DNA of 64,000 nucleotides from a phage, in NCBI GenBank assembly GCA_012441205.1, contig GCA_012441205.1_4705.1; one strand, written 5' to 3'. The translations under genes and the position numbers were made by a program. The notes under the pieces are model-generated. The model searched no databases. It had not been told where the DNA came from and was given only the letters and a program-made list of their open reading frames with translations. This document shows, in pieces, positions 24,842 to 54,167 of this stretch. The stretch's first letter is position 1; the number at the start of each line of letters is the position of its first letter.

Positions 24842-27800
24842 TTATTTGGCGTCGTTAAAATAAATATCAACAGCTCGTTCCGTTGCGTAGAGGAGACCAA
24901 GATTCACAGTCCCAACCACTTCCGGTGAACCGATGATACGGTTAGCGATACTGGTGCCACTGAAGATAGCATCAAGGGTGTGCCCGTCTTCGGTTTTGTT
25001 CACACCATGACCCACGGAAGAGACAACGGATTTCGCTTGAGCTGCGAAGGTACCTTTATCGCCCATCCCCGCACCAAGGTCGTAACGCATGAAAATACGG
25101 ATTGCGATCTGGTTCTCGCCTAACGGATTACCGTCTATTCTCACGTTACTGTTATTGATACGCCCCGTAGTTGCTTCGTTGAGTTTCAGTTCCTTAACGC
25201 GTTTAGCTCGCGCTTTATCTGCATCACCGACGAGCGCCGCCATGGTTTCACTCATATCCTCAATCTGAGCGCGGTACAGCACATCGATCTGTACAACTTC
25301 ACCATGAACGTCAGCACGTGGGTTATACTGACTCATACGACGTAATGCTTCAACGGCTTCCTGACTCTCATCACTCAGATCGGTCGCAATCGGTTCTTCC
25401 AGTGTTGCAAGGATCGTTCGTGGTTCAACATGATCGCCGATTTTCACGAGACCACGAATGTTGAGATGGGCGTCAACGATGAGCGTACGGCTCTTAATCG
25501 ATGGTGTTACGAGACGATCGGCAAGATTGTCGAAGATATACGAACTGTCCTCGTGAGTCTCTGGAATATCCAGAATACCGACAAGAGACAGAACACCTGC
25601 GCGCCAAACAACCTGACCTGGGTTCCACCAATCGCGTTTAAAATAAAGACGATGGAAGACCACCACATCCTGATCCTTAACGCGATCCCCGACTTTATAA
25701 TCGGTAATGAGATCGTGAGGATAATACTTACCTGGTCCTTTCCCGATTATCGTACCGAGCTGGAAAACCTCTTCCCCTAACTCTGGATCGTCGTATTGTA
25801 TCGTCAGCGCAGTTTTGGTGACCTTCTTAACAACACCGTCACCTTGGGCGGCAGCTGCAAAGAGTTTACCAACACGATGCGCGATGACAGTCTCACCGCC
25901 GGTGCGCCACGGTTGTACATCGTAACCCTCAGCGGCAATCATGCGGTTGTGTTGGATCCCGACGAAGACCAGACGTTTTCCATCATCACGGTCTACAGCC
26001 GGAACAGCTAACGCTGACGTACTCATTACCGATGAGATGCCGTCTGTCTTTTCATCGAATGGTCGTGTTTCACCATACACCGACACGATATTAGCATTAG
26101 GTGCAAGGTAAGCAGAGATACCCACATCCCCACTATCTTTCGTACCCTCTGACACAATACCAACATCGGACTTGTCGTATTCACGATCACGTGCGCGTCG
26201 AAGCGATGTCTTTGAACGACCCCCGATACCGGTCATCGTTGCTTCTTCACCCTGCTTGATATCCAGCATCGGGTTGGTTTCATCGATCACGATGGACGCG
26301 CTGTCGTCGAGAATTTGGTTCCAGACACTTACCGGACTGATTGAGATTTTCTGGCGGTTTCCTTGACTGCTGTTCTCATTCTGACGAATAGCGCCAACCA
26401 GATCCTTATACACCAATTCAGCGAACTTATCGTACGTTTTAAAACGTTGGTAGTTCACATCGTTCGTGTTAGGTGCCCAATCATCCAGAAGCAGTTCAAC
26501 AGCACGCAGTAACAACATGGCGAAATCGGTAGGTTCTCCCATGTTCTGTAGCAACGTACGGCTTACCGGATCAACGAAAAGACGCTCCATGAGTTCAAGT
26601 TCGCGTAAATGGCGAACCTTAAGTCCGGCACCATCGACAACGTTAAAATAGATATCTCGATTGTCGAAAGCACCGCGAGCGTAACCGATGTAGTTACGGT
26701 ACTCGTTAAATCCGCCCAGCAACAACGTCGTCATGCGATCGTCTTTACTGAAGATCAAACTTTCGTCATCAAAGCTCACCGCGAATTCATCGGGTGCTAG
26801 ACCCATACGAGAACCGCGAGGTACCGTACGATAGTTCGCTTTAAGATGTTCTAATAACGGGGTAAGTCCACCCAGATAACTTAGAACAACACCAACCGGA
26901 ATACGTACACCCATGAATTCAAGATCGGCGGCTTCGATCGGCATCTTAGCCGCATTGATACCGAAGAAATCAGGGAACGTCCCTACAGGTGTTGGTGTTT
27001 GTCCTGACTGACAGATATAGAGCTGATTGCGTTTATCGATTGCTAAGAATTCACCCAGCGTGTTACGCGCAAACGTCAGGAGCCCTTCGGCTAACTGTTC
27101 GTTGAACCGATCTTCCCCGATGAACTCCGGTAGCGTTTTTATATCGAGACGTATATCCCAATCAGCAAATTGGATTTGGGTATAGTTGCGTGCAAGCACA
27201 GCGAAGTAATACGGGACTTTGACGGCCGGATCAAAGACGTTACCACGTTTTAACGTGGTTAAGGGTGAGGACTTATCGTAATACATCGCTGTAAGTTGGC
27301 GTGTTAACCAACGACCGGCGTTATTAACGACACGCTCTGAACGTTTAACAAACACCTTACCGTAGGCGGTACTCAACGCAACTTCGGATGATGATACCTT
27401 TCTAATAGGTTTATCAACACGTTGTTTACGCATCCGGTATTTGATGCCGTTAACGACATAAATGCCGTCCTTACGAACCTTCGGCAACATCACCGGGAAC
27501 GTGGTTGGGACACCGCCTACAGGGGCCAGTTTAATCGTGATGACTTGATAATCCCCCATCACGTCAACAACATCTTCAACTTTATATCCCGTGACAGGGT
27601 AACCTGCCTGTTGTACGGCAACAACAGCGGCTGCGATGTCCTTTTGCATCACGTGTTCAACGTAATGTTTATCCCACACCGCAAGCGTCGATTTACATAG
27701 GCTCTTATCGACGATAACATCCGCTTCCGGCATAACCTTTGCTGGCGCTAATTTCGCGGCTTTTGGTTTAACTTCAACATACTCAGCAAGTGTTAATCCA

Positions 27801-29188
27801 GAACCGTCGGGTGCTTCGATTTCATGGATGGCGTCAGCATTACGCATCGCTGCTTTATATTGGACGCCGCTTAACTGACCCGCATCAGCCAGATCGCTCG
27901 CGCGTACCAACACCGCATCCGATAACGACTGAATATATTCACCGTGCGTTTTTGGTAACGTTGCCGCGTCAAAGACATCAACCTTTTCTTCTTCGGTATC
28001 GTCGGTAACGACTTCGAAGAGATCGTCGGTAATGTCCTGATCTTCATCAGGTTGAAAATCCGGCTGTACTTCTACCCCGGGTACTTCACGGACATCTTCG
28101 AACGAGCGTTCTACAATGGCGTTCCACGCATCAGCGTCATCGTCTTCATCCGACCCACCAACCAACTCCGCTTCTAACTCATCGGAATCAAGAACAGTGG
28201 CCAGATCCTCACCGTTAGGAAGCACGACGTCGCGATCATCGTACTCTGCATCCGGGCTGTCCGCAAGAATATCTCGCTCTTGACGAAGAACCTGTTCCTC
28301 TTCTTGTTTCTGTTCTTCTTCATTCGCGCTCTGCGACCATAGACGTGTTACCGCCATCATCCAACGACGCTGGAAGGTTTCGAGTGTCGTTTTATCGAGT
28401 TCTTCCCCTTCCTTTACAAGCCCGGTACGCCATTCTTCCAACAGGCCGAGATTCAGCGTAAAGAAGTACACACCGTCTGTAAATACAACGTTAAGCTTAT
28501 CCAGCGTGGCTCTGTCTAACGAAGCCATTGTGCTGTTCTCACGATCGGTTCCCAACCAGCGGAAGAAGTCAAAGAACGACAGCTCCTCCGGCGTGGCGAA
28601 ATTCATGAGGTTGTTACGGGTCGGTGCCTGTTGCGTGGTACGCATCAACGAAATCTTCGGCAATGTTGACGGTATACGGAACAACAAAAAGTGTTGGCGA
28701 TCGCTTTGCTGCGCGATTTCGTTGGCTTTCGACCAAATTGTTTTACGTACGTTGAACCATTCATCATACCAACGGGTGAGCGTTGGACGATAGATGTACA
28801 TGTGGTTAAGATGTGCGTAGTTAGCAACGATCTGAGCGTTGATGTTTTTCTCCACCGTACTTAGATCGGTAACCAAACGAAAACGACGATGTGACGCACG
28901 ATAATCCAATTTCGCTCGTGGGAGCTGGAATCGCTGATCACGTCGAGGTGCACCCTGTTTGGTTGCGAGATCATCAGCAAACGAAATCCATAGTTGAGCA
29001 CTTTCTTTACTCAACATGTATTCGTTTTCTGGAGGACCTATCAATGAAGGATCCGTTGCGGTGTAATGATAGACAGCATAACGTGGCAGCTGCAATAGCT
29101 GCACTAAACGTAATCTCGGTGACAATAGCTCTTGGTATCGTCTGACGCCAAACTGTCGGTAGTAATCAAGGTATTTAAGTTTTGCCAT
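24842..29188 (-). CDS. multisubunit RNA polymerase beta-like subunit (divergent)
   Basis: 1448 aa. GIGGRSK...DVGIVSEGTKDSGDVGI parallels the bacterial beta region GPGGLTRER...GRVCPIETPEGPNIGL, and GMGDKGTFAAQAKS...DAIFSGTSIANRIIG parallels GDKMAGRHGNKGVIS...DIVLNPLGVPSRMNIGQ (E. coli beta recalled from memory). Contains a long acidic insertion. GGAG RBS 8 nt before the ATG at 29188. Confidence 0.65.
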   Translation of the reverse strand: MAKLKYLDYYRQFGVRRYQELLSPRLRLVQLLQLPRYAVYHYTATDPSLIGPPENEYMLSKESAQLWISFADDLATKQGAPRRDQRFQLPRAKLDYRASHRRFRLVTDLSTVEKNINAQIVANYAHLNHMYIYRPTLTRWYDEWFNVRKTIWSKANEIAQQSDRQHFLLFRIPSTLPKISLMRTTQQAPTRNNLMNFATPEELSFFDFFRWLGTDRENSTMASLDRATLDKLNVVFTDGVYFFTLNLGLLEEWRTGLVKEGEELDKTTLETFQRRWMMAVTRLWSQSANEEEQKQEEEQVLRQERDILADSPDAEYDDRDVVLPNGEDLATVLDSDELEAELVGGSDEDDDADAWNAIVERSFEDVREVPGVEVQPDFQPDEDQDITDDLFEVVTDDTEEEKVDVFDAATLPKTHGEYIQSLSDAVLVRASDLADAGQLSGVQYKAAMRNADAIHEIEAPDGSGLTLAEYVEVKPKAAKLAPAKVMPEADVIVDKSLCKSTLAVWDKHYVEHVMQKDIAAAVVAVQQAGYPVTGYKVEDVVDVMGDYQVITIKLAPVGGVPTTFPVMLPKVRKDGIYVVNGIKYRMRKQRVDKPIRKVSSSEVALSTAYGKVFVKRSERVVNNAGRWLTRQLTAMYYDKSSPLTTLKRGNVFDPAVKVPYYFAVLARNYTQIQFADWDIRLDIKTLPEFIGEDRFNEQLAEGLLTFARNTLGEFLAIDKRNQLYICQSGQTPTPVGTFPDFFGINAAKMPIEAADLEFMGVRIPVGVVLSYLGGLTPLLEHLKANYRTVPRGSRMGLAPDEFAVSFDDESLIFSKDDRMTTLLLGGFNEYRNYIGYARGAFDNRDIYFNVVDGAGLKVRHLRELELMERLFVDPVSRTLLQNMGEPTDFAMLLLRAVELLLDDWAPNTNDVNYQRFKTYDKFAELVYKDLVGAIRQNENSSQGNRQKISISPVSVWNQILDDSASIVIDETNPMLDIKQGEEATMTGIGGRSKTSLRRARDREYDKSDVGIVSEGTKDSGDVGISAYLAPNANIVSVYGETRPFDEKTDGISSVMSTSALAVPAVDRDDGKRLVFVGIQHNRMIAAEGYDVQPWRTGGETVIAHRVGKLFAAAAQGDGVVKKVTKTALTIQYDDPELGEEVFQLGTIIGKGPGKYYPHDLITDYKVGDRVKDQDVVVFHRLYFKRDWWNPGQVVWRAGVLSLVGILDIPETHEDSSYIFDNLADRLVTPSIKSRTLIVDAHLNIRGLVKIGDHVEPRTILATLEEPIATDLSDESQEAVEALRRMSQYNPRADVHGEVVQIDVLYRAQIEDMSETMAALVGDADKARAKRVKELKLNEATTGRINNSNVRIDGNPLGENQIAIRIFMRYDLGAGMGDKGTFAAQAKSVVSSVGHGVNKTEDGHTLDAIFSGTSIANRIIGSPEVVGTVNLGLLYATERAVDIYFNDAK

Positions 29189-29191
29189 GGG

Positions 29192-29380
29192 TTAGGCTCC
29201 ACGAGGTCCCGTTAAGTTGCGTAATAGGAACGCAACCGTATCGTAACCAATATCGATGTTGAATTTATTTTTACCACTTACCCAGAAAGCTCGCTTCTTG
29301 TGCGAGTTGGTAATTTCGTCAATAGCTTCCATGGAATAAAGAACGTTAACCGAGACCGTATCACCGTCGAACCTTATCTT
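29192..29380 (-). CDS. predicted exon 2 of the RNAP beta-prime-like N-terminal subunit gene (contains the DFDGD-type catalytic motif)
   Basis: Minus-strand frame between an in-frame TAG and the TAA at 29192-29194 translates to ...AKIRFDGDTVSVNVLYSMEAIDEITNSHKKRAFWVSGKNKFNIDIGYDTVAFLLRNLTGPRGA-stop. FDGD (codons at 29360-29371) matches the beta-prime NADFDGD active site. It has no ATG start, so it is not in the ORF track. The 5' boundary (3' splice site) is approximate. Confidence 0.55.
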   Translation of the reverse strand, partial: KIRFDGDTVSVNVLYSMEAIDEITNSHKKRAFWVSGKNKFNIDIGYDTVAFLLRNLTGPRGA

Positions 29381-29450
29381 CGCCTCAGGTCGCTACGCTG
29401 AGACCGCCTGCATGGATACGTACATCACAGGCTGCTTGCACTTTCATGCA

Positions 29451-29756
29451 AGAGGAGACTATATCAAACCGGCAGCACAACCTGCTACGGTAACCTACAC
29501 TTCGAAGACGCTCGTCCTCTACAGGGTGGTAAATCCCTTAGTCGTTGAACCTGCGTTGTTTCCCATTCTTGCAAACAAGAATGCCGTATTGCTACGCAAC
29601 AACCAGGCTGCTGATTGCCCATTGTTTCGCACCTTAGCACCGCTTACGCGGCTTTTCTTTCAGCCTAAGCCTCTTACGGAGTTAGTGCATCTCAACTGTT
29701 GTTTCTGCCTTTCGGCACCTCATGGGTCGTTGAGCTTTAGGGGTTCCCAGCAATTC
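29451..29756 (-). ncRNA. group I intron catalytic core (P3-P9 region)
   Basis: P, Q, R and S elements as above; GNRA-loop hairpins flank the core (CCCGAAAGGG near 29775-29790 and CTTGCATGAAAGTGCAAG near 29435-29452). Confidence 0.7.
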
Positions 29757-29805
29757 GTAGGTTTTTCAAGCACTCCCTTTCGGGAATACCGGACTCATTA
29801 TTAGC

Positions 29806-31278
29806 TTATTTATTCAAGTATCTGAAATCCCACTTATCTTTACGTCGTTTATCGCACTTAATGTCAGGATGATTAACACGATGCCTAATAGTTGTTGCCG
29901 ATAGCTGGCTGAGATTCTCAGCAGATCGTGCGCCAAGAACAACGAGTTTTGTGTCGTCTGGACGCGTAACTTCTACTGCCCGATAATGCTTACGTAACAC
30001 ATCACGCCAATATTCACGACGTTCTGGTTCAGCATACTCAAGCATGTAACCGTTAACATCTACTAAACCGTAGCTTTCGTTTAATCGAGAGGTAGCGGCT
30101 GGTTTACTAATACCGATTGCTTTAGCCGCATCGACCACGGTTTTATACGGGGTCTCATTACCGTCTCTATCTACAACCACAATGAAATCTGGACGTGAAT
30201 CGAGTAGCTGCTGTCTGCGTTCGACGGCTTGTTGATGAAGCACCATGTTAACGTGTTCGAACCCGTAACCTTCTGGGCCACGCCATCCTGGATTGTTGTT
30301 CGCTCGATAAAGTATCGTCGATGATTTCACTCCAGTCTGACGCGATGCCTCGTTTGCGCTATGAACAACCGTGGTAGAGCCATCAGGATGATATATCCGT
30401 ATCTGGTTCATTATACCGGAACCAATGAAGTTACCATCGGCTGATTTAATGTCCGGCCATGGTTGCGGGTCATCTTTGAATTTAACCACCCAGCGGTTGT
30501 TAAACAGCTTAACTTTTCGAACATGTTTGCCTAATGTCGTATCCGTAACACCTGCGACCACTGACGCTTGTGTAATGCTCAGGTACTCAGTAACGGTATC
30601 GTTCCAAGTATCCCAGAGCAGAACCGGTTTATTGTCGTCACGTAAACCATGTTCGATAGCATGCAGGACATTACGACTTCTGGTTGCCCATTCCAGATTG
30701 TCAAGAGAATAGTTCCACTTATCAGCATCAAGATGATTAACGTCCATCTTATCGACATTAGCCGGATATTCCCGCCACGCCAACATCAAGCAGCGATGTA
30801 AAACCTTAGTTCTCGTTGTATCTCGACAATCGTGACGTAGACTAATGAATACGTAGTTATCCTTTTTCGGATACGATCTGCATTCCTGTCCATCCTTGCG
30901 GGAGATAACTCGCCCTTTCTCATTTATCAGATAACGAGTATGTCCAGGAATAACACGATAACCAGGGTACTTAGCGATCTCATAAGCAGGCTCGAAACGA
31001 TAGGATAAGTTATCAACATCCCAATTAGATTCGTCGCCGTCAACAAACATCGCTTTGACGTACTTCTGTGTTTCAATATCAACCAGGATGTTTTTGTGTG
31101 CGATACAAATCAATGCTGGGATATTGAATTCGCGACCAGCTAAAGTAACAGTGTCGCCGTTTCTCGGTATCGCGACGTGGGTATCACGATACCGTAAGTT
31201 TCCATAGCCGTCTATTTCAATCCAGCTCAGAAACGGAATAGATATAAATTCTTTTTCAGATACTCGCCATTTAAACAT
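29806..31278 (-). CDS. HNH homing endonuclease (intron-encoded)
   Basis: 490 aa; HNH motif VNHLDADKWNYSLDNLEWATRSRNVLHA and an N-terminal NUMOD4-like segment YPGYRVIPGHTRYLINEKGRVIS; own ATG at 31278 with AGGTG RBS; located in the 5' peripheral region of the intron. Confidence 0.8.
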   Translation of the reverse strand: MFKWRVSEKEFISIPFLSWIEIDGYGNLRYRDTHVAIPRNGDTVTLAGREFNIPALICIAHKNILVDIETQKYVKAMFVDGDESNWDVDNLSYRFEPAYEIAKYPGYRVIPGHTRYLINEKGRVISRKDGQECRSYPKKDNYVFISLRHDCRDTTRTKVLHRCLMLAWREYPANVDKMDVNHLDADKWNYSLDNLEWATRSRNVLHAIEHGLRDDNKPVLLWDTWNDTVTEYLSITQASVVAGVTDTTLGKHVRKVKLFNNRWVVKFKDDPQPWPDIKSADGNFIGSGIMNQIRIYHPDGSTTVVHSANEASRQTGVKSSTILYRANNNPGWRGPEGYGFEHVNMVLHQQAVERRQQLLDSRPDFIVVVDRDGNETPYKTVVDAAKAIGISKPAATSRLNESYGLVDVNGYMLEYAEPERREYWRDVLRKHYRAVEVTRPDDTKLVVLGARSAENLSQLSATTIRHRVNHPDIKCDKRRKDKWDFRYLNK

Positions 31279-31344
31279 ATTAACACCTATTAAATAGGAA
31301 ACATCATATTAATAGGTTTAAAAGTTAAAAATGACAGAAAATGG

Positions 31345-32820
31345 CTAAATTGAATCACCACCAAGTCCGGCGAGGTATGGCGCAGGGACAATAGTCGTTT
31401 CTACGAACGAAGCATTAGGTAACCAGTCGGGGTATTCCCATGCGATAAATCGTTCATCCGTTATTGGTTCCCAGTTACTATCCAGTTCGGTTTTCGGTTT
31501 TGCGGCGACGGTTGTACGTGCGTAACAGGTTAACGGGATAACGGATTGCATACCTGATACCGGATAACGTGTTACCATCGCAGCCAGGTTATTCCAGTAC
31601 TTATATCCGGCAATATAGATAAGCTCGGTGTAAGTAATGGGGTGAACATCCGCGCCAGGTTTATTCAACATCTCCGGGGGTAATTCACTCATGTCACGGA
31701 ATAACCGAAACGAATCGTTGTTCACATAGACGAGGCAAAGATATCGTCCATTGACCATGATAGGCTCGTTACGCACGCCAGGATCGCTTAAGGTGTTCAG
31801 TAAACGTTCTATTCCGTCCCATGTTGTAAAGTCATCGATGGTGTCTGGATCAAGCGTGACGCGCTCACGTTCCATCGTTTCGGTATCAATAAGTTCAACT
31901 TCTGTAACATCACGGACAAATATTTCCTGCAAAATACCGGTACGTAACGCATGTTGCGTTACTGGGAGAGCGGCTTTACTCATCTGGTATAACCCTAACT
32001 GAACCGCGGTACAGGAAGGCTGGTTAGGCGACCCTAATACCTCCGTTGTGGGGTTAATTGCCGAAATAACGTTACGGGTTGAGTTCCAAACGCGACGTGA
32101 ACCAAACTTACCTTGGAAGATCCCTTTCTTACCCTGGAACATATCCAACAGTAAAGCGTAGATATCGTTGAATGTTCTCTGTAAGCTCCAGCGCTGGCCG
32201 TCGTAAACGGGATCGGAATAATCTTTTAATCCATCAGGGACGGTGTTAGAAATTGCAAGGAAACGACGATACAACTCCGTGATTTCTTGCTCGCTTTCAT
32301 ACCCACCTTCTTTTACTTCTATTTCACGTAAGCCTGCAGGCAATACCAGTAAGTGACGGGTCATCGCTTTGAACATGTTCTCTTCGACAACTTTAATTCG
32401 TAGCTCTCGTTGAGCTGAACCCGTTGAAACGAACTTGATATCCGCGACGTGTTGTGCAAAGAACCCGTATCCTGTTTGTCCTGTTAATGCATCAGACGCA
32501 ACGAAGTCGCGTTGTTCGGGATCCCACCGAGCGTACGCCTTCCCCGACATGATATCGCCATAGAGGTGTTTTAATCGAATGAGACGGTCGTAAATGACAG
32601 GATGCAGGATTTCAACCTTGCATTCAATCACCGCAAATCGACGGTCTCGATCTTCACTACCCGCACTACCAAAGATGGTGTAAGAATAGAAACCATCATC
32701 GTGGAAATTACCGGTGCTTGGGTCACGAATGCTCATGCTCGTGATCTTGGGGAGAAAACGTAACTGCTGTTTATCGAGGTGTAAAATACTAATATTAAAC
32801 GGCTCTCTGACTTTAGCCAT
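31345..32820 (-). CDS. RNAP beta-prime-like N-terminal subunit, exon 1 at ORF level (last about 57 codons are probably intron sequence)
   Basis: Start moved to the ATG at 32820 (MAKVREPF..., AGAGGAG RBS about 9 nt upstream). MFQGKKGIFQGKFGSRRVWNSTRNVISAINP matches the beta-prime [27 protein letters not shown] region, and TRYPVSGMQSVIPLTCYA matches NRAPTLHRLGIQAF...HPLVCAA. The ORF then runs into a stop at 31345 without the expected DFDGD; the likely 5' splice site is near 31516. Confidence 0.65.
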   Translation of the reverse strand: MAKVREPFNISILHLDKQQLRFLPKITSMSIRDPSTGNFHDDGFYSYTIFGSAGSEDRDRRFAVIECKVEILHPVIYDRLIRLKHLYGDIMSGKAYARWDPEQRDFVASDALTGQTGYGFFAQHVADIKFVSTGSAQRELRIKVVEENMFKAMTRHLLVLPAGLREIEVKEGGYESEQEITELYRRFLAISNTVPDGLKDYSDPVYDGQRWSLQRTFNDIYALLLDMFQGKKGIFQGKFGSRRVWNSTRNVISAINPTTEVLGSPNQPSCTAVQLGLYQMSKAALPVTQHALRTGILQEIFVRDVTEVELIDTETMERERVTLDPDTIDDFTTWDGIERLLNTLSDPGVRNEPIMVNGRYLCLVYVNNDSFRLFRDMSELPPEMLNKPGADVHPITYTELIYIAGYKYWNNLAAMVTRYPVSGMQSVIPLTCYARTTVAAKPKTELDSNWEPITDERFIAWEYPDWLPNASFVETTIVPAPYLAGLGGDSI

Positions 32821-33065
32821 GGAGACACTCCTCTTTACCACCACCGGCTGCGGCGGTATCATCTGAACACACGAGAGACGTAATGGGTGATGGCGTCACC
32901 CATCGCTTCCTTGCTTGAGGCGAGGAAGTTATTAGGTTACGTACCTGCCTGATTTTATCAGGTGGGCGATGTGTGAAGTTACGCTTCAACATTATCAATG
33001 CCGAAGGTAAACTTCGTGCATCACGTTCCAACGTAACATGGGAACGTATCGAACTGGAGGTATAC

Positions 33066-36000
33066 ATGGTAGATAAAACCCGTGTTGAGGGTGATGATAA
33101 TTGGGACAACTGGGATGAAGACTTCTCCCTGGATCTCGATTTTAACGAACCCAAAGACGATCGTAAACCGATAACACGCTTTGCGATAGGAGCGGTTAAA
33201 GGTGCTGCTGAGGATCTTACTTCCTACGAAAGAATGAAGGAGATCGCCAGAAACGCATTGCCTAAGGGCTACAGCGACGGTATGGATCTTATTGATTCCG
33301 CCGTCGGATCCACGAAGGAACTATACAATGAAGCCGTTCGTGACGTTCTTCCTAAGGTCCAAAGCTCAAAACGGTTAGCCGCACAACTGACCAAGAAATA
33401 CCGTGCGAGCATGCCCGATTTCTCGAAGAAAATTCTTGAACAATGGGAGCGAGAAGCCAAGGAAGAAGACGAACGTAAACAAGCTGAAGAAACCCTTCGT
33501 CAACGCATGGCGAGCGCGGGGGACGATGAGATCGCCCGCAAGGTTGCCGAGGCATTAGGCGAATCAGCAAACCAAAGCGCGGATCAGTTCGCTGAACAGC
33601 AAGCGAAAGAGAGTATCCGTGACGATATCGCTGACAAACGGTACGCTGTAACCAACAAACAAATGAGCGCGATGCAAGAAGGCGTCGCCAAGATGGTTGG
33701 TTTCAACAACGAATTCGCTGCACGCTACATGCGTAAAAGCCTGGAACTGAAATATCGTTCCTTAGCGATTCAACGTGCAAGTTTTGATCAGCATAAAAAG
33801 TTAGCCGAAGTCTATATCGGTTTATTACAAAACATCCAGAAGAATACGGCTTTACCTGATGCGGCTAAAGCAAAAATGTCGGAAGAATTCCGCCGTAGCG
33901 CGTACCAACGTTTCTTTGGTAATGCGTTAGATGCGATGAGTTCTTTCGAGAACCGTTTCTTTGCCGATGTTAAGAAGAACCTTGCCACCAACGCATTAGG
34001 CGCTTTAAAAGGTGTCGTGTCCGGCGCAAACGATGCGTTATACGGTTTAAACGAAGCGCGTGACTCGATGTCCATGATGGACGGGATGGGGTCAGAAGGC
34101 GATATTAAGGAAATGCAAGGAAAGATGTTGGGTCAGTTCATTGGCTCAACTGTCGCGCCGTGGATGGCTAATAAAGGCAGGATGGCGTTACGCGATTTAG
34201 CAAAACGTCACCCCAATGCTAAATTCGCTAGCGCATTAAAAGCCGTGGATCAAGGTGGTGAGGCTGCCGCTTACACGACGCGTAATCTCGGTAAACTGCT
34301 CCAGGAAGATATTCGTAAAAACGAATTCAATCTTAGCGATCCGTTTTACAAGCAATTGTTACGCGGTGCAGGGCGTTGGGCGTTCAACATGGACAGCGGA
34401 CGTAACTTCCGCGTGATGAACGACACCGCTGAAACACTGGCGGAGCAAACATCTTTCGACGGTTTAACTTACCGCAGTATCAATGAAGTTATTCCTGGTT
34501 TTCTTGCACGCATTCTGAAAAGCAGTGAAGGTATCCGCACCGGAAACAGCGATCCTGACTACGAGGTCTATGACGGCATCAGCGGACAATTCGTGTCTCA
34601 GCGCACGCGTGAACAAAGCGTCAATGACACGCTGTTTAACAAACGTACATTTGGTTATTACGCCAGCCGTTTCAACGAGGTTATCTCGGTCATCGATCCC
34701 GATAAGCAATTATCGGAAAAAGCCAGAAAGGCGCTGGCCAAGCAGTTGGCGCGAGATAGCGACGCGAACATCGCATTCGACCCGGCTCGTTTTACGGATG
34801 AAAGCAACTTCGATCGTAGTATTGACCGCGACGCTATTAAGGAACTTTCCACGTACTTTCGTGACCGTTACGGTATTCGTGATGATGTCAACGATAAGGG
34901 CGAACGTCATCAGGTCATTGGAAACCGCGGGCAATATTACACGGAACGTAACCGAGCCGATCTTCGTTACGGTCATCTGAAATCTTTACAACCGGATATC
35001 CAGCGTAACCTTAACCTGCTGAAACGTACTGGTGACGTCCAATATCTGGAACGGATTGGGATTGTAACGAGAAATAGCGACGGAAGCTACTCGGTTAATC
35101 ACGATCGGTATTTCTCTGAAATCGATCAATACATCGACCGACCGGAGTACGCTGACCGCGGCGATGTCAATACGCGATTAACCGCTCAGGAAACAAGAGC
35201 GCTGGCGCTGGGTTATCGTGACGCAAAACCATCAGCTGGTGACGTCCAAAATGTCGGCCTGCCGAACATCGGTCGTAAGGCTGCTGGAACAGTAACCGTT
35301 GATGAAAACATCGGCTACGATAAATGGTGGAACGACACAGGTGTTATCACCACATCGCTTGAAGAACAGAATCGAGCGTGGCAAGAGCTTTATCTCGAGG
35401 CGTTGTCCGAAGCATCCGAACAACGTGTTGAAATGCTTGCGCTGCTGAAAGCCATTTCTGAGAAAGACTGGTCTAATAACGTTTCGCTGGATGGTGAAGA
35501 TGTACCTGAAGGTACAGCACCCATTTCATTTATCGATCGTGCCAAACAAAAACTCGGCGGACGCAACCTGTTTAAAGGCGGCCGCAATCTCCTCTGGAAA
35601 GGAATTAAAAATACCGCACGTTTAGGTGTTAAAGGCGCACGCTGGGGTGCAGAACGCACGTTGGGTAGTTTGGTAAATTCTGGCCGACGCATTATCAATT
35701 TCAACCGCTTCGTGTTCGGCGCATTATCCAAGGTTGATCAGGTTCCGTTTGACATTTACGTTAAAGGGGAATCCCAACCACGCATACTGGCTGCCAAACT
35801 TCGTCAGGGGTTATACTTCGACGAAGCGACAGGAAAAGCCGTAAAACGGATGAAGGATATCAAAGGCCCACTCGTTGATGCGGATGGAAACATCGTAATC
35901 AGCAACGAGGATATCGAGAAAGGGTTGGTCACTCGCGCTGGTCGTGCCTTTGAGAATTCAGGACTTAAAGCATGGGCACGTGAAGGTCTTAATGGAATAA

Positions 36001-39000
36001 CGACGGCATTAAGTCTCCCACGGATGTTAAAACGCGGTGCGGTTGAGATCTACAAACAGCTTGACAAAACACCCGACGTTTACGTCAAGGGAGAATCAAC
36101 GCCTCGTCTGTTGTCCATGGTGTTAGCAGCGGGTGGGTATTTCCGTCGCTCGGATGGACAAGTCATCAAAAATCTTGAAGACATCGATGGTGATGTTGTT
36201 GATGCACAAGGTAACGTCGTACTTACGCTTGCCGACATGCAGAAAGGACTTGTCGATAAATACGGTAAAGCGATTCGTCGTTTAAAAGAAAAGCTCATCA
36301 ACTTCGGTGTAAAAGCTTTTACGTTACCGTTAACGTTGCTACGTAAGACAAAGGACATCCTTAAAGCCCTTCCAGGTAAAACCGTTAACGGTCTACGGCG
36401 GATGGGATTAAATTTCCAATCACCCGACGCATTACTGGTGGGAACAACGTCGAGCATGGTAGATCGCCTCGATGCTATTTACCAGCTTCTTGACCAGCGT
36501 ATGCCGGGAGGTGATAAGGATTACCGCGATTGGAATGGCGATGGTGTTCGAGAAGGATCGTTGGAAGACCTGAAACGTAAGCGTGAAGCCAAGGAAAACG
36601 GTAAGGATGACATCGGCAAAGATTCCAATAAAGGAGAAGAAAAGGAGAAGAAACGAGGGTTACTCGGAAGCCTTTTCGATATGCTCGGTGATACCGCAAT
36701 AGGTAAACGTCTCATGGCGAGTCCGCTTGGAAAAATTCTGGGTGGTCTTGGGGCGGTGTTAAGCGGCGGTGCGTCGTTAACTGGGTTGTTGGGCAAAGGT
36801 CTCATTAGAGGAACCGGCGCGCTGGTCAAGGGAGGACTAAGTGCGGCAGGATGGTTAGGACGTGGTGCGTTAATGGCGGGTGGGGCCGCGTTGAACGCCG
36901 TTGGTGGGTTATCGGGATTAGGTGCATTCCTCATCTCACCTGTTGGGCTTGCTATCGCTGGCGGTGCGTTGGCTGCTTATGCTGGATGGAAGATCTATCA
37001 GCATTTCGCCGAGAAGCCTGACCCGATGCAGAAGCTCCGTCTTATTGCATACGGTGCAAAAGGGGATGATAAAGACTTCAATAAGAAGCTGCTTGCGACA
37101 GAAACATACCTCACCGACCATGTGGTCATGACCGGGGATACCATCGGATTCGATCCGAAAGCCGATTCTGAAAAGATTCTCGAAATCTGGGAATTGTCTC
37201 TGGAAGATTCCGACCGAATGAACGAATGGAAACGCTGGTATCTGCATCGTTTTATTCCTGTTTTCGCTCGTGCGTACAAACTCTGGAAAGAGCATATGCC
37301 GGACGAGAAGAAATACATGGAAATGGATAAATATCCGAACGGTGAGAACAAAGTGAAATGGTCGGAAGCGTTTATCTGGCCTTCCGATAGTCCTGATGGT
37401 CCGTATTACGTCGAAGCTAACCCGTTGGGTTCTTCTGGTGCGACGCGTTATATTGCTGGTCAAGACGTCAAAACCTTGATGCTGAAACAGCTCGAAGCCA
37501 TCAAGAAAGAGTACCAGAATCAGATTAAGCAATACACTCATGATGAGGCTATTGCTGATTGGTCACGGATGTCTGACACACAACGTAAATCCGTTGCGCC
37601 TAACGCATTACGTGGTCAGAAAGCGTCATTACGTTTTAACGATAAACGTTACAACAGCGCTGGTGCTAAAGGACGACAGAAACTGGATGCAACCGCGGTT
37701 ATTGAAAGCGTAGACCGTCGTGGTAGAAAATGGGTTGCCGGTGGATACATCGATGAACTCACCAGTCTCCGTGTTCGTGCGTACGGTATTAAGGTTCCGT
37801 TGTTAAGTCAGATAAAAGTGCTGATGGAACTCGAAGACGCTGTAGAACCTGGCGTTGTCGCTGAAGGTAAAGGTGTTAAATACGGTGGCGATCTTGTCGC
37901 GCTCTACAAGAAATTCGCGACGAAGTTCGGAAGAGACGTTAACAGCAAGCATGATCAGGATATCTGGTTTGCTTGGATGAACAACCGTTTCCTGCCCGTC
38001 TTTTTAACCTATTACCAACAAGTTAGCGACATGGGCGGTCAAGGACTTCTGTCCGACGTGGTACAGAACCTGAAAGACAGCCAACGTTGGGAAATCGGTG
38101 AAGAACTTGTCGCAGCGCAATACCGTGATGAGAAAGGTACACTGCAGCCCGTATGGTCGTGGAACAGTTGTGGTTTCTCCGGTACTGAAGCTAACACCAC
38201 CAGCAGTTCAACAAAGAGTCAGCTCGATCTGTTAAAAGAATATGCGGATAAAGAGAAGGTTCGTGAGAAGAACGCGGAAGCATCGCAAGAGGATACCGAT
38301 AAATTATCGAAGATCCAAGAGCTGATGATGAAGCAGGCTGGGTACGAGAAGAAAGACGGTGTCTGGCAGAAGAAATCTCGCATTACCGGCGGGATGAGTA
38401 ACTCCGAAGCGAATTACAACCCCAATGGGAATAAGGTCGGTGCAAGCAGCTTTACTGCTTCAGCTACTTCCAGTGCGGGATTGGGGTCAACCGGCGATCT
38501 TACCGGATTGCCTAACATGGGCTTACAGAAACCTGCAACGGGGCCAGGTCCCGAAGCTGGACGTCGTGCGCTTGTTAAATCCGCTGTGAAACGCGGTATT
38601 ACCGATCCAATGGAAATGGCGATGTTCCTTGCAAACATCGAACATGAATCGGGGAACTACACTCACGTACGTGAGGGGAACTATAAGACACCAGAGCATC
38701 TTAAACAGGTCTTCCCTTACAAATTCCGTGACGTGCAGGATGCAGCGCAGACGATTAGCATGGGGCCGGAAGCGGTGTTCGAACGCGTGTACGGTAATCG
38801 TAAAGACTTAGGGAACACGCAGAAAGGAGACGGGGCGAAGTATTTAGGACGTGGCTTCATTCAGGTTACCGGTAAAGCTAACTACGCTCGTCTGTCCAAG
38901 ACCTTGAATAAAGATCTTGTCAGCGATCCATCATACCTGGAAACGCCGGAAGGTGCGGCGGAAGGTAGTGTCGCGTGGTGGCTCAACCGAGGCAATGTGT

Positions 39001-52826: not shown

Positions 52827-54167
52827 ATGATTAGTATTTTTGGTTTTTATACGTACAAAGGGTACGCTAATAACCACCCAAAAACCACGGCGAAATTCGG
52901 TGAGTTCAGTCAGCACAGTGCTACGTTCAGTCGCGAAATCGGCATCTATACCAACACGGCGTACGCACGTACGACCTTATTAGTGTTGAATGCCGAAAAC
53001 GAAGCTGGTGAAGCACAAACGCTGAATGACGACACCGCAGGCCGCATTCTTCAGGTTGGTCAATGGTTGCTGGAAAAAGCCTCATCAGGCGAAATCCAGG
53101 ATGACCGAGACCAGGTTATCGGCTACCTAAAAGACGACTTCACAACGTATCTGGATTCTATCGACATCCCAACACCCACCACCGATGGTACCGTCTATCT
53201 ACCGGCGTGGATCAGTTTCAAGATAACCGCCACCGGCGATGTCGTCAAGATTTGGTTGTCTGATAGCGTATTCCAAAGTCAATATCCAAAATACGAATAT
53301 GAAGTCGTTCCCCCTGTTCCTAAGGATCAGTTAGATACCTTCTTCGAAGATCTGGCAACATTGAAGAAACTGGTTGACAGTCGAAGCAGCGAGAAACTGA
53401 CCGAAGAAATCAACGAGGTGCGCGACCAATTCCCAGACACACAATTGTGGACGAAAACATATAAAGCGTACGATTACACCGACGATTCGAAATATATTAA
53501 TACCGATTGGACGGTGATTATCTACGGTGCAGCAGGTAACAACATTGATAATATCAAGGAGTTCCTGCAAAACTGGATTCTTAGCAATAGCACGCACGGA
53601 CGTCCAGACTGGGAAATCGTTCTGCCGGATCTTTTTATTCCGACGGAACACATCTTCATTCCAATCTGGAACCGCCACAGTGCGCCAGAAATGACCAATC
53701 AGGCACGTATCTATAGTCCTATATTCGATGATTCGTTGATGGATACCTACCTGAAAAACTTTGCTGATGGTTACGGCGAAACCGCCGAAGTCCGTAAATC
53801 GCTTCAAGCGGTGCCGACGTTGTGGCGCTCGATCGGTTTCTTAAGCGTTGGTAACTCACGTAACCGAGACGGTAAACTTAAGTTCTACGATCGTTGGCCG
53901 CAATACGCGCTCATCAGCACAACCAGCATCGATATTAACCGTATCGATGATGCGACACGTGAATTCATCACGTTCACTTACGAAATGCTGAAACTGGCAG
54001 AATCGCTGACCGAAGACGACCCGGTACCGTTGGGTTATAGTCGTGTTACGCGTGGTAGCAATAGCTTCTTAGCGAAAAGCCACAACGATGTTCAGTATCT
54101 CTTCTTAACAAAAGAAGCGTTCCTGAAGAAAATGCCGGATGAAGCCGACACGCCTGTTGGAGGTTGA
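52827..54167 (+). CDS. hypothetical protein (446 aa)
   Basis: ATG at 52827 with GAGGA RBS 6 nt upstream; stop overlaps the RBS/start of the next gene. Confidence 0.5.
   Translation: MISIFGFYTYKGYANNHPKTTAKFGEFSQHSATFSREIGIYTNTAYARTTLLVLNAENEAGEAQTLNDDTAGRILQVGQWLLEKASSGEIQDDRDQVIGYLKDDFTTYLDSIDIPTPTTDGTVYLPAWISFKITATGDVVKIWLSDSVFQSQYPKYEYEVVPPVPKDQLDTFFEDLATLKKLVDSRSSEKLTEEINEVRDQFPDTQLWTKTYKAYDYTDDSKYINTDWTVIIYGAAGNNIDNIKEFLQNWILSNSTHGRPDWEIVLPDLFIPTEHIFIPIWNRHSAPEMTNQARIYSPIFDDSLMDTYLKNFADGYGETAEVRKSLQAVPTLWRSIGFLSVGNSRNRDGKLKFYDRWPQYALISTTSIDINRIDDATREFITFTYEMLKLAESLTEDDPVPLGYSRVTRGSNSFLAKSHNDVQYLFLTKEAFLKKMPDEADTPVGG

What the first reader, a model, noticed from the sequence alone, without database searches (positions are those of the whole stretch)
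29192..31515. Group I intron with HNH homing endonuclease splits the RNAP beta-prime-like gene just before its catalytic DFDGD motif
Seen in sequence: the minus strand between the HNH ORF and the beta-like gene carries all four conserved group I core elements in canonical order: P AATTGCTGGGAA (29744-29755), Q AATCAGCAGCC (29603-29616), R GTTCAACGACTAAGGG (29535-29550) and S TTTGATATAGTCTCC (29451-29468), with P7 as GACTA/TAGTC. The upstream 505-aa ORF matches beta-prime up to ...SVIPLTCYA (HPLVCAA in E. coli) and then runs about 57 more codons into a stop without any DFDGD. Downstream of the intron core an open frame with no ATG start encodes AKIRFDGDTVSVNVLYSMEA..., ending at a TAA 3 nt before the RBS-ATG of the beta gene. 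Inference: exon 1 ends near 31516 and exon 2 begins near 29380, giving roughly ...PLTCYAR|KIRFDGD...; an ORF-level annotation yields a truncated, catalytically dead beta-prime fragment. Splicing would therefore be needed to produce the phage's own RNA polymerase, and the homing endonuclease has targeted the most conserved stretch of the enzyme.
Basis: partly seen in the sequence, partly recalled or inferred. Interest (0 to 1): 0.9.

Follow-up and report, generated by a model that had tools for sequence, protein, structure and literature searches.

The report
HNH intron inside phage polymerase DFDGD

Summary
The window comes from a relative (90% nt identity) of E. coli jumbo phage Goslar.

**What is confirmed**
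- A group I intron on the minus strand: Rfam RF00028, 57.8 bits (cut-off 50), E 4.7e-12.
- A 490-aa HNH endonuclease ORF inside it.
- A start-less downstream frame encoding FDGD.

**What is wrong**
They are conserved in intron-less orthologues and show 9-11 synonymous and 0 non-synonymous changes.
- Exon 1 ends at U 31354, not 31516. The intron is 31353..29372 (1982 nt, ending in G). Exon 2 starts at 29371.
- The junction is ...LGGD|FDGDTVSV..., inside DFDGD rather than before it.

**Decisive evidence**
- An intron-less Goslar-like contig (L008) encodes exactly the predicted product in one ORF.
- Another contig (L010) has the same intron without the ORF.
- phiKZ (gp180/gp179), fMGyn-Pae01 and Goslar are split at the same codon boundary.
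- The guide sequence lies after the ORF, so the HNH gene sits in the loop of an extended P1 helix that stays complementary across alleles.

**Status**
Splicing is inferred, not shown. This is a new member of a known kind. The practical value is the corrected gene model, because public CDSs for Goslar gp205 and phiKZ gp180 are truncated.

The parts
31354..32820 (-). Exon 1 of the virion RNA polymerase beta-prime-like N-terminal subunit gene (phiKZ gp180 / Goslar gp205 orthologue), 489 codons, ending ...APYLAGLGGD. The first in-frame ATG is at 32862, but the likely start is ATG 32820.
   Evidence: The alignment with intron-less orthologues is collinear to the last codon. There are 0 non-synonymous changes in the last 54 codons against L008 and Goslar. 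AAGAGGAG lies 7 nt upstream of ATG 32820, and orthologues and the Goslar annotation start there.
29372..31353 (-). Group I intron, 1982 nt. It begins UCAAUUUAG... after exon U 31354 and ends ...GAUAAGG with the terminal G at 29372.
   Evidence: Boundaries come from the intron-less allele L008 and identical junctions in Goslar, L010, phiKZ and fMGyn. Both the U at -1 and the terminal G fit the group I rule.
31344..31356 (-). 5' strand of P1: exon GAU (31356-31354) plus intron UCA (31353-31351), then the extension UUAGC (31348-31344). The in-frame stop TAG of the unspliced ORF (31347-31345) lies in this extension.
   Evidence: Constrained folding and duplex prediction place a U.G wobble at the junction in all five intron-bearing alleles.
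29806..31278 (-). HNH homing-endonuclease ORF, 490 aa, with its own AGGTG ribosome-binding site. It is located in the loop of the extended P1 helix.
   Evidence: Pfam HNH_3 5.7e-9 with a weak NUMOD1 match. PHROG 59 'HNH endonuclease' 1.5e-28. The best solved relative is I-HmuI 1U3E, E 6.7e-4. 32% identity to phiKZ gp179, E 2e-32. Against Goslar it shows 126 syn / 67 nonsyn codon changes.
29792..29805 (-). 3' strand of P1, carrying the internal guide sequence: GCUAA (29805-29801) pairs with UUAGC, and UGAGUC (29797-29792) pairs with GAU|UCA. G 29794 sits opposite the splice-site U.
   Evidence: A conserved GUCC lies 1-2 nt 5' of P2 in the window, Goslar, L010, phiKZ and fMGyn. The extension sequences differ between alleles but remain complementary.
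29770..29789 (-). P2 hairpin GUAUUCCC-GAAA-GGGAGUGC.
   Evidence: Read from the sequence. It is conserved in Goslar and L010.
29435..29821 (-). Ribozyme core (P3-P9) as matched by Rfam RF00028, including P (29755-29744), Q (29616-29606), R (29550-29535), S (29468-29454), P7 GACUA 29543-29539 / UAGUC 29461-29457, and a shortened P8 (29490-29469).
   Evidence: cmscan 57.8 bits, E 4.7e-12, full-length model match. Element coordinates verified. The alignment with Goslar and L010 cores shows a 49-nt deletion in P8.
29372..29434 (-). 3' tail of the intron (peripheral hairpins after P9), ending in the terminal G at 29372.
   Evidence: Conserved in Goslar and L010. The intron ends ...AAGG in the Goslar group and ...AACG in the phiKZ group.
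29192..29371 (-). Exon 2: FDGDTVSVNVLYSMEAIDEITNSHKKRAFWVSGKNKFNIDIGYDTVAFLLRNLTGPRGA (59 codons) plus stop TAA 29194-29192. It has no start codon of its own before FDGD.
   Evidence: It is collinear with the C-termini of intron-less orthologues. Only synonymous changes against L008 (3) and Goslar (1). It is not annotated in the Goslar or phiKZ records.
24842..29188 (-). Downstream gene of the same operon: the 1448-aa beta-like virion RNA polymerase subunit (phiKZ gp178 orthologue). It is uninterrupted here.
   Evidence: PHROG 3148 'RNA polymerase beta subunit', full length. Synteny matches phiKZ, KTN4, SPN3US and Proteus phage 10.

Best explanation
The window carries a mobile group I intron (31353..29372, minus strand). 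It is inserted between the first and second codons of the DFDGD Mg2+-binding motif of the virion RNA polymerase beta-prime-like N-terminal subunit gene, the orthologue of phiKZ gp180 and Goslar gp205.

Shown by sequence comparison:
- Removing exactly these 1982 nt joins ...GGU GGU GAU to UUC GAC GGU GAU.... This restores a 548-aa protein (562 aa from the first ATG) that is collinear with uninterrupted orthologues and identical in sequence to the product of a natural intron-less allele.
- The 5' splice site is specified by a P1 helix. The exon's GAU and the first intron bases pair with a guide sequence (UGAGUC) about 1.56 kb downstream, just before P2. The whole HNH endonuclease gene is therefore looped out of an extended P1.

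Inferred:
- The RNA self-splices by the usual guanosine-initiated two-step transesterification.
- Unspliced mRNA gives a 491-aa product (489 exon-1 residues plus Ser-Ile) that ends two codons into the intron and has only the first Asp of the motif.
- The HNH protein, a relative of the nicking enzyme I-HmuI and of phiKZ gp179, nicks or cuts intron-less alleles of co-infecting relatives at this site and drives homing.
- The co-existence of intron-less, ORF-less-intron and HNH-intron alleles among Goslar-like phages is consistent with such gain and loss.
For: - Rfam RF00028 scores 57.8 bits against a cut-off of 50, E 4.7e-12, with a full-length match. Homologous hits in Goslar (67.7), L010 (64.9), phiKZ (92.2) and fMGyn-Pae01 (88.4) are all at the same locus.
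- Uninterrupted orthologues have no such hit.
- The spliced product aligns without gaps across the junction with KTN4, SPN3US and Proteus phage 10 orthologues.
- It covers PHROG 2986 positions 3-538 of 539, E 1e-180.
- The intron-less IMG/VR contig L008 encodes exactly the predicted protein in a 1686-nt ORF.
- The insertion point (GAU|UUC or GAU|UUU, D|F) is identical in five intron-bearing genomes. KTN4 has the uninterrupted GAT TTC.
- Only synonymous changes occur in the last 54 codons of exon 1 and in exon 2, whereas the HNH ORF has 67 non-synonymous codon changes.
- P1 with a U.G wobble at the junction forms in all five alleles, with different but complementary extension sequences.
- HNH_3 domain, I-HmuI similarity and homology to gp179.
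[quoted passage not shown] Gp180 is said to contain DFDGD (PMC10612078).
Against: - There is no RNA or protein evidence for splicing in this phage.
- For phiKZ, long-read transcriptomics found no spliced reads for the predicted gp56, gp72 and gp179 introns under the conditions used (PMC10914365).
- The window's Rfam score is only 8 bits above the cut-off, and its P8 lacks 49 nt present in Goslar and L010.
- The exon part of P1 is short: 3 bp in the window and Goslar, 4 bp in phiKZ and L010.
- No consistent P10 pairing with the 3' exon was found.
- The endonuclease's activity and target are inferred from homology only.
Confidence: 0.88

Rival explanations
1. Exon 1 ends at 31516 and exon 2 begins at 29380, giving ...PLTCYAR|KIRFDGD...; the 57 codons after PLTCYA belong to the intron.
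For: There is a U at 31516 and a G at 29381, and the join is in frame. The spacing superficially resembles E. coli HPLVCAAYNADFDGD.
Against: - The 54 codons are conserved in intron-less orthologues and show 0 non-synonymous changes.
- The intron-less allele L008 contains them.
- The join gives RFDGD, which lacks the first catalytic Asp.
- Goslar, L010, phiKZ and fMGyn all break at D|F.
- The P1 helix modelled in all five alleles puts its U.G wobble at 31354, not 31516. No guide-sequence search was run for 31516 itself.
Confidence: 0.01
2. The intron is a decayed, non-splicing relic. Either the polymerase subunit is truncated or non-functional in this phage, or the catalytic loop is supplied some other way, for example by separate translation of exon 2 or by a paralogous subunit.
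For: - No spliced reads were seen for the phiKZ introns in one study (PMC10914365).
- The window's Rfam score is near the threshold, and P8 carries a 49-nt deletion.
- The exon part of P1 is short.
Against: - Exon 2 is under strict purifying selection, with 0 non-synonymous changes against two relatives.
- Exon 2 has no start codon or ribosome-binding site before FDGD.
- All core elements, the terminal G and the U.G pair are intact.
- The virion polymerase is essential, and Gp180 is reported to carry DFDGD and to be packaged in virions (PMC10612078).
- The core is 87% identical to Goslar's, and differences are concentrated in loops.
Confidence: 0.06
3. The HNH ORF is a free-standing endonuclease gene between two separate genes, and the ribozyme-like sequence is an unrelated structured RNA such as a leader or regulatory element.
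For: Public annotations of Goslar and phiKZ list three separate features with no join.
Against: - The ORF-less L010 and fMGyn alleles retain the ribozyme at the same codon boundary.
- Precise absence of the whole 1982 nt restores one ORF in L008.
- P1 bridges the ORF.
Confidence: 0.02

Closest known systems
phiKZ gp180 / gp179 intron (Pseudomonas phage phiKZ, NC_004629)
   Same: - Same gene (virion RNAP beta-prime-like N-terminal subunit) and same operon order: giant lysin gene, then gp180, then HNH, then gp178.
- Same insertion point, ...LG[AG]D|FDGDT.
- Same layout: exon 1, HNH ORF in the P1 loop, core, exon 2.
- Homologous endonuclease (32% identity, E 2e-32) and the same GUCC guide sequence before P2.
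- The annotated CDS is likewise truncated.
   Different: - The ribozyme cores are too divergent for blastn to link them and differ in peripheral domains: a large P5 extension here, and Rfam scores of 57.8 against 92.2 bits.
- The endonuclease is 490 aa here and 357 aa in phiKZ.
- The host is E. coli rather than Pseudomonas.
Goslar Intron_gpI / gp206 (Escherichia phage vB_EcoM_Goslar, NC_048170)
   Same: Orthologous element at the orthologous site. The exons are about 95% identical, the core about 87%, and the HNH protein 86%. The RNA is already annotated as Intron_gpI.
   Different: - The first ~20 nt of the intron and the segment after the ORF stop (the two strands of the P1 extension) have different sequences in each phage, but stay complementary within each phage.
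- The window lacks 49 nt of P8.
- The Goslar record has no exon 2 and no joined CDS.
PhiPA3 gp210 intron (Birkholz et al. 2024, Science; PMC11620839)
   Same: A group I intron with an HNH nicking endonuclease in a virion RNA polymerase gene of a nucleus-forming jumbo phage. It is inserted at conserved catalytic-site aspartates and was shown to act in competition between co-infecting phages.
   Different: It lies in the neighbouring gene (phiKZ gp178 orthologue), after a conserved Asp-Asp. The window's orthologue (24842-29188) is uninterrupted at ...DRDD|GKRL. A relative, L010, does carry an intron at that second site.
I-HmuI / SPO1 DNA polymerase intron and other phage group I introns (T4 td, nrdB, nrdD)
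   Same: A phage group I intron in an essential nucleic-acid-metabolism gene at an active-site motif, with an HNH-family (I-HmuI-like) endonuclease.
   Different: The endonuclease ORF sits in the P1 loop rather than in a peripheral loop of the core, such as P6 in T4 td (from my own knowledge of those introns, not tested here). The target gene is a multisubunit RNA polymerase.

Membership tests
Group I catalytic intron (Rfam RF00028) | Covariance-model score at or above the curated gathering threshold | tested here: met
   57.8 bits against 50, E 4.7e-12, model positions 1-253.
Group I catalytic intron (Rfam RF00028) | Conserved core elements P, Q, R and S in order, with P7 pairing | tested here: met
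   Exact coordinates verified; P7 is GACUA/UAGUC.
Group I catalytic intron (Rfam RF00028) | 5' exon ends in U paired with G of an internal guide sequence (P1); intron ends in G | tested here: met
   U 31354 pairs with G 29794 in a 6-bp helix GAUUCA/UGAGUC, and the terminal G is at 29372. The same arrangement holds in four other alleles.
Group I catalytic intron (Rfam RF00028) | Removal restores a continuous, conserved reading frame | tested here: met
   The intron-less allele L008 encodes the identical product. The alignment with orthologues is gap-free. PHROG 2986 is covered end to end.
Group I catalytic intron (Rfam RF00028) | Guanosine-dependent self-splicing | not testable with these tools
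   No RNA data are available here. One study saw no spliced reads for the phiKZ homologue (PMC10914365).
Subgroup IA (phage-type) group I introns | Extra hairpins P7.1/P7.2 between P7 and the 3' strand of P3 | tested here: inconclusive
   A 37-nt insertion at that position (alignment) can be read as two hairpins (AGGGAUUUACCACCCU and GAGGACGAGCGUCUUC). This was by inspection only; no subgroup-specific model was run.
HNH homing endonuclease, I-HmuI-like | HNH catalytic motif or domain | tested here: met
   Pfam HNH_3 5.7e-9, residues 176-204. Aligns with I-HmuI 1U3E residues 11-107, E 6.7e-4.
HNH homing endonuclease, I-HmuI-like | Encoded within the intron it mobilises, with presence/absence polymorphism among close relatives | tested here: met
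   The ORF lies in the P1 loop. There are ORF-less (L010, fMGyn) and intron-less (L008, KTN4) alleles.
HNH homing endonuclease, I-HmuI-like | Site-specific nicking or cleavage of the intron-less allele | not testable with these tools
   Inferred from homology to gp179 and I-HmuI and by analogy with PhiPA3 gp210 (PMC11620839).
Multisubunit RNA polymerase beta-prime (N-terminal part) | Metal-binding motif DFDGD | tested here: met
   Present only in the spliced product, as ...LGGDFDGDTV. It aligns with GDYDGD of the phage AR9 beta-prime subunit 7S00/7S01.
Multisubunit RNA polymerase beta-prime (N-terminal part) | Match to curated beta-prime domain models (Pfam RNA_pol_Rpb1 families) | tested here: not met
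   No Pfam RNAP domain was found even at E<=10. Assignment rests on weak PDB matches to beta-prime chains (E 5e-4 to 8e-3), on PHROG 2986, and on the literature for phiKZ Gp180 (PMC10612078).
PhiPA3 gp210-type intron (Birkholz 2024) | Insertion after the conserved Asp-Asp of the beta-like subunit (phiKZ gp178 orthologue) | tested here: not met
   The window's 1448-aa gene reads through ...VDRDDGKRL.... The intron studied here is in the adjacent gene. L010 has an intron at the gp210-type site.

The most novel reading that the evidence does not exclude
Among Goslar-like coliphages this DFDGD-site intron may be an active weapon in phage-phage competition, as shown for PhiPA3 gp210, rather than a passive parasite. 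On this reading its HNH enzyme disables the virion polymerase gene of co-infecting intron-less relatives. The intron-less allele L008, which differs at all four codon third positions flanking the insertion point (GGG GAC|TTT GAT against GGT GAT|TTC GAC), would be a synonymously recoded escape allele.

A related possibility is that nucleus-forming phages tolerate several introns in their polymerase genes because transcription and splicing occur in a compartment without ribosomes. That could also permit an unusually long P1 loop holding a 1.5-kb ORF.
Probability: 0.15. Interest if true: 0.55.

Novelty: new member of a known kind. Interest (0 to 1): 0.3.

Why it matters
**Gene model.** The catalytic subunit of the virion RNA polymerase is mis-annotated as a truncated protein lacking FDGD in the reference records of Goslar (gp205) and phiKZ (gp180). 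About a dozen phiKZ-like genomes have nothing annotated over the intron core. The exact junction given here (D|FDGD) allows correct CDS joins, correct expression constructs and correct interpretation of proteomics or structures.

**Biology.** This adds a second insertion site in the same polymerase operon as the experimentally studied PhiPA3 gp210 intron. It also supplies, within one narrow phage group, all three stages of a homing-endonuclease cycle: empty site, ORF-less intron and HNH-bearing intron. That makes homing or competition experiments in E. coli straightforward to design. It does not reveal a new kind of element.

Tried and rejected
I built and translated it. It was rejected after alignment with intron-less orthologues.
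- **P1 candidate GUCAUU.** It lies 18 nt into the intron and makes 6 bp with the exon. It was rejected because Goslar has GGCAAA there and phiKZ and fMGyn have nothing equivalent. The conserved GUCC before P2 is the guide sequence.
- **P10 pairing.** I looked by inspection for pairing between the guide region and the 3' exon. At most 2 bp were found, and these were not conserved.
- **Pfam on the truncated and spliced proteins.** No RNAP domain was found.
- **PDB search for a solved virion-RNAP subunit.** Only distant beta-prime chains (AR9 and plastid) came up.
- **blastn of the window's ribozyme core against phages.** Only Goslar matches over its length, so cores of the Goslar and phiKZ groups are not alignable by blastn. 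MAFFT aligns only the conserved core elements, so no formal covariation statistics were attempted on five sequences from two tight clades.
- **Ceyssens et al. 2014 (PMC4178840).** The paper is not held, so what is said about it comes from papers that cite it.
- **L008 synonymous cluster as a general signature of intron-less alleles.** Rejected as a general rule, because intron-less KTN4 has GAT|TTC identical to phiKZ's flanks.

Full report
**What the window is.** The region 29150-32900 is 90% identical at the nucleotide level to Escherichia phage vB_EcoM_Goslar, a nucleus-forming jumbo phage, and matches no other phage record at that level. Local gene order is the same as in phiKZ, KTN4, SPN3US and Proteus phage 10:
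- a ~2250-aa tail lysin gene on the opposite strand;
- then, on the minus strand, a ~550-aa polymerase subunit gene (phiKZ gp180 type);
- then a ~1450-aa polymerase subunit gene (phiKZ gp178 type).

The Goslar record already carries an 'Intron_gpI' RNA feature and an ORF noted as 'weakly similar to ORF179 phiKZ'. It has no second exon and no joined CDS.

**Checking the observation.**
- Rfam's group I model matches 29821..29435 on the minus strand over its full length at 57.8 bits (cut-off 50), E 4.7e-12. This is the only gathering-level RNA family hit in the 64-kb window.
- The ORF 31278..29806 has a Pfam HNH_3 domain (5.7e-9) and a weak NUMOD1 match. It matches PHROG 59 'HNH endonuclease' (1.5e-28).
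- Its best solved relative is the nicking enzyme I-HmuI (1U3E, E 6.7e-4), and it is 32% identical to phiKZ gp179 (E 2e-32).
- The start-less frame ...AKIRFDGDTVSVNVLYSMEA... is present. It ends at TAA 29194-29192, 3 nt before the ATG of the 1448-aa gene.

The window has TTVAAKPKTELDSNWEPITDERFIAWEYPDWLPNASFVETTIVPAPYLAGLGGD; Proteus phage 10, for example, has TTIVSSVKQELDYDWQPIPDAYALVFPKHERDVDFSDTLSVHPSRLGLLGGD, followed directly by [YF]DGDT.
- Only the last two codons and the stop (S-I-TAG) have no counterpart.
- Taking exon 1 to U 31354 and exon 2 from 29371 gives ...GGU GGU GAU|UUC GAC GGU GAU..., that is ...LGGD|FDGDTVSV.... With this join the alignment is gap-free through the motif to the C-terminus.
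- The spliced product covers PHROG 2986 positions 3-538 of 539 (E 1e-180).
- The intron is therefore 31353..29372, 1982 nt. It is preceded by U and ends in G. It splits the catalytic motif between its first Asp and the Phe.
- Because the intron starts with U and exon 2 starts with U, sequence identity alone allows a 1-nt slide. The terminal-G rule, and Goslar (whose intron starts with C), remove this ambiguity.

**Decisive natural controls.** A scan of IMG/VR with the spliced protein found three Goslar-like contigs.
- L008 (237.5 kb) has a single 1686-nt ORF encoding exactly the predicted protein. It is followed by the same TAA-ccc-ATG and the next gene, so it is an intron-less allele.
- L010 (182.9 kb) has a 509-nt ORF-less intron at the same codon boundary, at 64.9 bits.
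- L009 is Goslar itself.

In the phiKZ group the pattern repeats:
- phiKZ has the HNH-bearing intron (1443 nt, 92.2 bits), with the gp180 CDS annotated as ending ...LGAD* and exon 2 unannotated.
- fMGyn-Pae01 has a 481-nt ORF-less version (88.4 bits). OMKO1 shows the same split match and the same core, so it probably carries it too, but I did not inspect it directly.
- KTN4 has the uninterrupted sequence GCG GAT TTC GAC.

About a dozen phiKZ-like records carry this intron core, almost all with no feature annotated over it.

**Selection.**

| Segment (window vs relative) | Synonymous | Non-synonymous | Note |
|---|---|---|---|
| Last 54 codons of exon 1, vs Goslar | 11 | 0 | |
| Exon 2, vs L008 | 3 | 0 | |
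| Exon 2, vs Goslar | 1 | 0 | |
| HNH ORF, vs Goslar | 126 | 67 | 82% nt identity, against ~95% for the exons |

Both exon parts are translated and constrained, while the endonuclease evolves faster.

**Anatomy of the ribozyme.**
- A tidy 6-bp P1 candidate 18 nt into the intron was discarded because it is not conserved in Goslar.
- Folding the ORF-less fMGyn intron, and duplex prediction for the others, put the splice-site U opposite the G of a conserved GUCC lying 1-2 nt upstream of P2, which is after the ORF.
- In the window, exon GAU plus intron UCA (31356-31351) pairs with UGAGUC (29797-29792).
- The helix continues after a small internal loop as UUAGC (31348-31344) with GCUAA (29805-29801), directly abutting the HNH stop codon.
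- The extension is GGAAAGGCUA/UAGCUUUUCU in Goslar and CCUUGAAAAA/UUUUUCAAGG in L010. The sequences differ but complementarity is preserved. The ORF, when present, occupies the loop of this extended P1.
- P2 (29789-29770) has a GAAA loop. The core follows, with a large P5 extension, a 37-nt insertion between P7 and P3' that can be read as P7.1/P7.2, a P8 shortened by 49 nt relative to Goslar and L010, P9, and a 63-nt tail ending in G 29372.
- I found no convincing P10.

**Start codon.** The first in-frame ATG (32862) has no ribosome-binding site. ATG 32820 has AAGAGGAG 7 nt upstream and corresponds to the start of the orthologues and of the Goslar annotation. The mature product is therefore most likely 548 aa.

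**Identity of the host gene.**
- Pfam does not recognise it, spliced or not.
- The beta-prime assignment rests on three things. First, weak matches to solved beta-prime chains: phage AR9 7S00/7S01 at E 5e-4, including alignment of ...LSGDYDGDVL with ...LGGDFDGDTV, and plastid beta-prime. Second, the DFDGD motif itself. Third, the literature on phiKZ Gp180, a virion RNAP subunit that co-purifies with Gp178, Gp80 and Gp149 and is stated to contain the universal Mg2+-binding DFDGD (PMC10612078).
The stretch directly before DFDGD, where E. coli has HPLVCAAYNA, is APYLAGLGG here.

**Mechanism: what is shown and what is inferred.**
- Shown by sequence: the intron's presence, boundaries and structure, restoration of the frame, presence/absence polymorphism, and homology of the endonuclease.
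- Inferred: self-splicing in vivo; a 491-aa product from unspliced mRNA (489 exon-1 residues plus Ser-Ile) that ends two codons into the intron and keeps only the first Asp of DFDGD; and homing by HNH nicking of empty sites.
- Caveats: no spliced reads were detected for the predicted phiKZ introns in one long-read study (PMC10914365). A 2025 preprint nevertheless treats gp179 as an intron-encoded homing endonuclease and shows it can be deleted (PMC12676376).

**Comparison with what is known.**
- The closest known element is the phiKZ gp179/gp180 intron, predicted in 2002 according to later papers (PMC10914365, PMC11512511), together with its orthologue flagged in the Goslar record.
- The experimentally studied PhiPA3 gp210 intron (PMC11620839) is of the same kind, but it sits in the neighbouring gene after a conserved Asp-Asp. 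The window's orthologue reads through that site (...VDRDD|GKRL..., last base 25982).
- L010 does carry a second group I intron exactly there.
- I found no paper that states the D|FDGD insertion point or describes the split of Goslar gp205. The held library is incomplete.

**Verdict.** It is a new member of a known kind. Its main value is a corrected gene model and a convenient natural allele series for experiments. Interest 0.3.

Noticed in passing
L010:9413-9800 (relative); equivalent site in window about 25982/25981 (-): The Goslar-like contig L010 has a second group I intron (Rfam 54 bits) immediately after ...PAADRDD in the orthologue of the 1448-aa polymerase gene. This is the same type of site as the PhiPA3 gp210 intron. 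The window's gene reads straight through DRDDGKRL.
   Followed up: partly
window 29469-29490 (-), compared with L001:8430-8495 and L010:5860-5925: The window's P8 is a short hairpin that lacks 49 nt present in both Goslar and L010. A flanking A.A mismatch in those two is a G-C pair in the window. This may explain the lower Rfam score (57.8 against 65-68 bits). Its effect on activity is unknown.
   Followed up: partly
window 32818-32862 (-): The mechanical ORF starts at ATG 32862, but the probable start is ATG 32820. It has a strong AAGAGGAG Shine-Dalgarno sequence and matches the orthologues and the Goslar annotation. This makes the spliced protein 548 aa rather than 562 aa.
   Followed up: yes
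window 31354-31359 and 29366-29371 (-), compared with L008:5503-5514: The intron-less allele L008 differs from the window at all four codon third positions flanking the insertion point (GGG GAC|TTT GAT against GGT GAT|TTC GAC). The chance of four adjacent changed codons at a pre-specified site is about 3e-4 given the overall divergence. Possible causes are co-conversion, an endonuclease-resistant allele, or chance. Intron-less KTN4 shows no such recoding relative to phiKZ.
   Followed up: partly
NC_004629 (L007:1793-4893), NC_048170 (L001:5081-8774), and about 12 phiKZ-like records: Reference CDSs for phiKZ gp180 (NP_803746) and Goslar gp205 (YP_009820914) stop at or shortly after the 5' splice site. 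Exon 2, which encodes FDGD and the C-terminal 59 residues, is unannotated, and most records carrying the intron have no feature over it.
   Followed up: yes
phiKZ-like genomes, second and third places (e.g. phage 6B OR608733 204541-204858; KTN4 53263-53393): Sequences 82-90% identical to the phiKZ gp180 intron core occur at other loci in phiKZ-like genomes. These are presumably the related introns in other polymerase genes (the gp55/56 and gp71-73 regions), which would suggest one intron lineage has spread between sites. I did not inspect them.
   Followed up: no
window 29806-31278 (-) against flanking exons: The HNH ORF is only 82% identical to Goslar's at the nucleotide level (67 non-synonymous codon changes), while the flanking exons are about 95% identical. 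The endonuclease either evolves faster or has a partly separate history from its host gene.
   Followed up: partly
window 32973-39731 (+): The divergently transcribed 2252-aa ORF is the orthologue of phiKZ gp181 (tail-associated lysin). It is annotated variously as 'tail fiber protein' or 'putative chitinase' in Goslar. Its position fixes the synteny of the polymerase operon.
   Followed up: no
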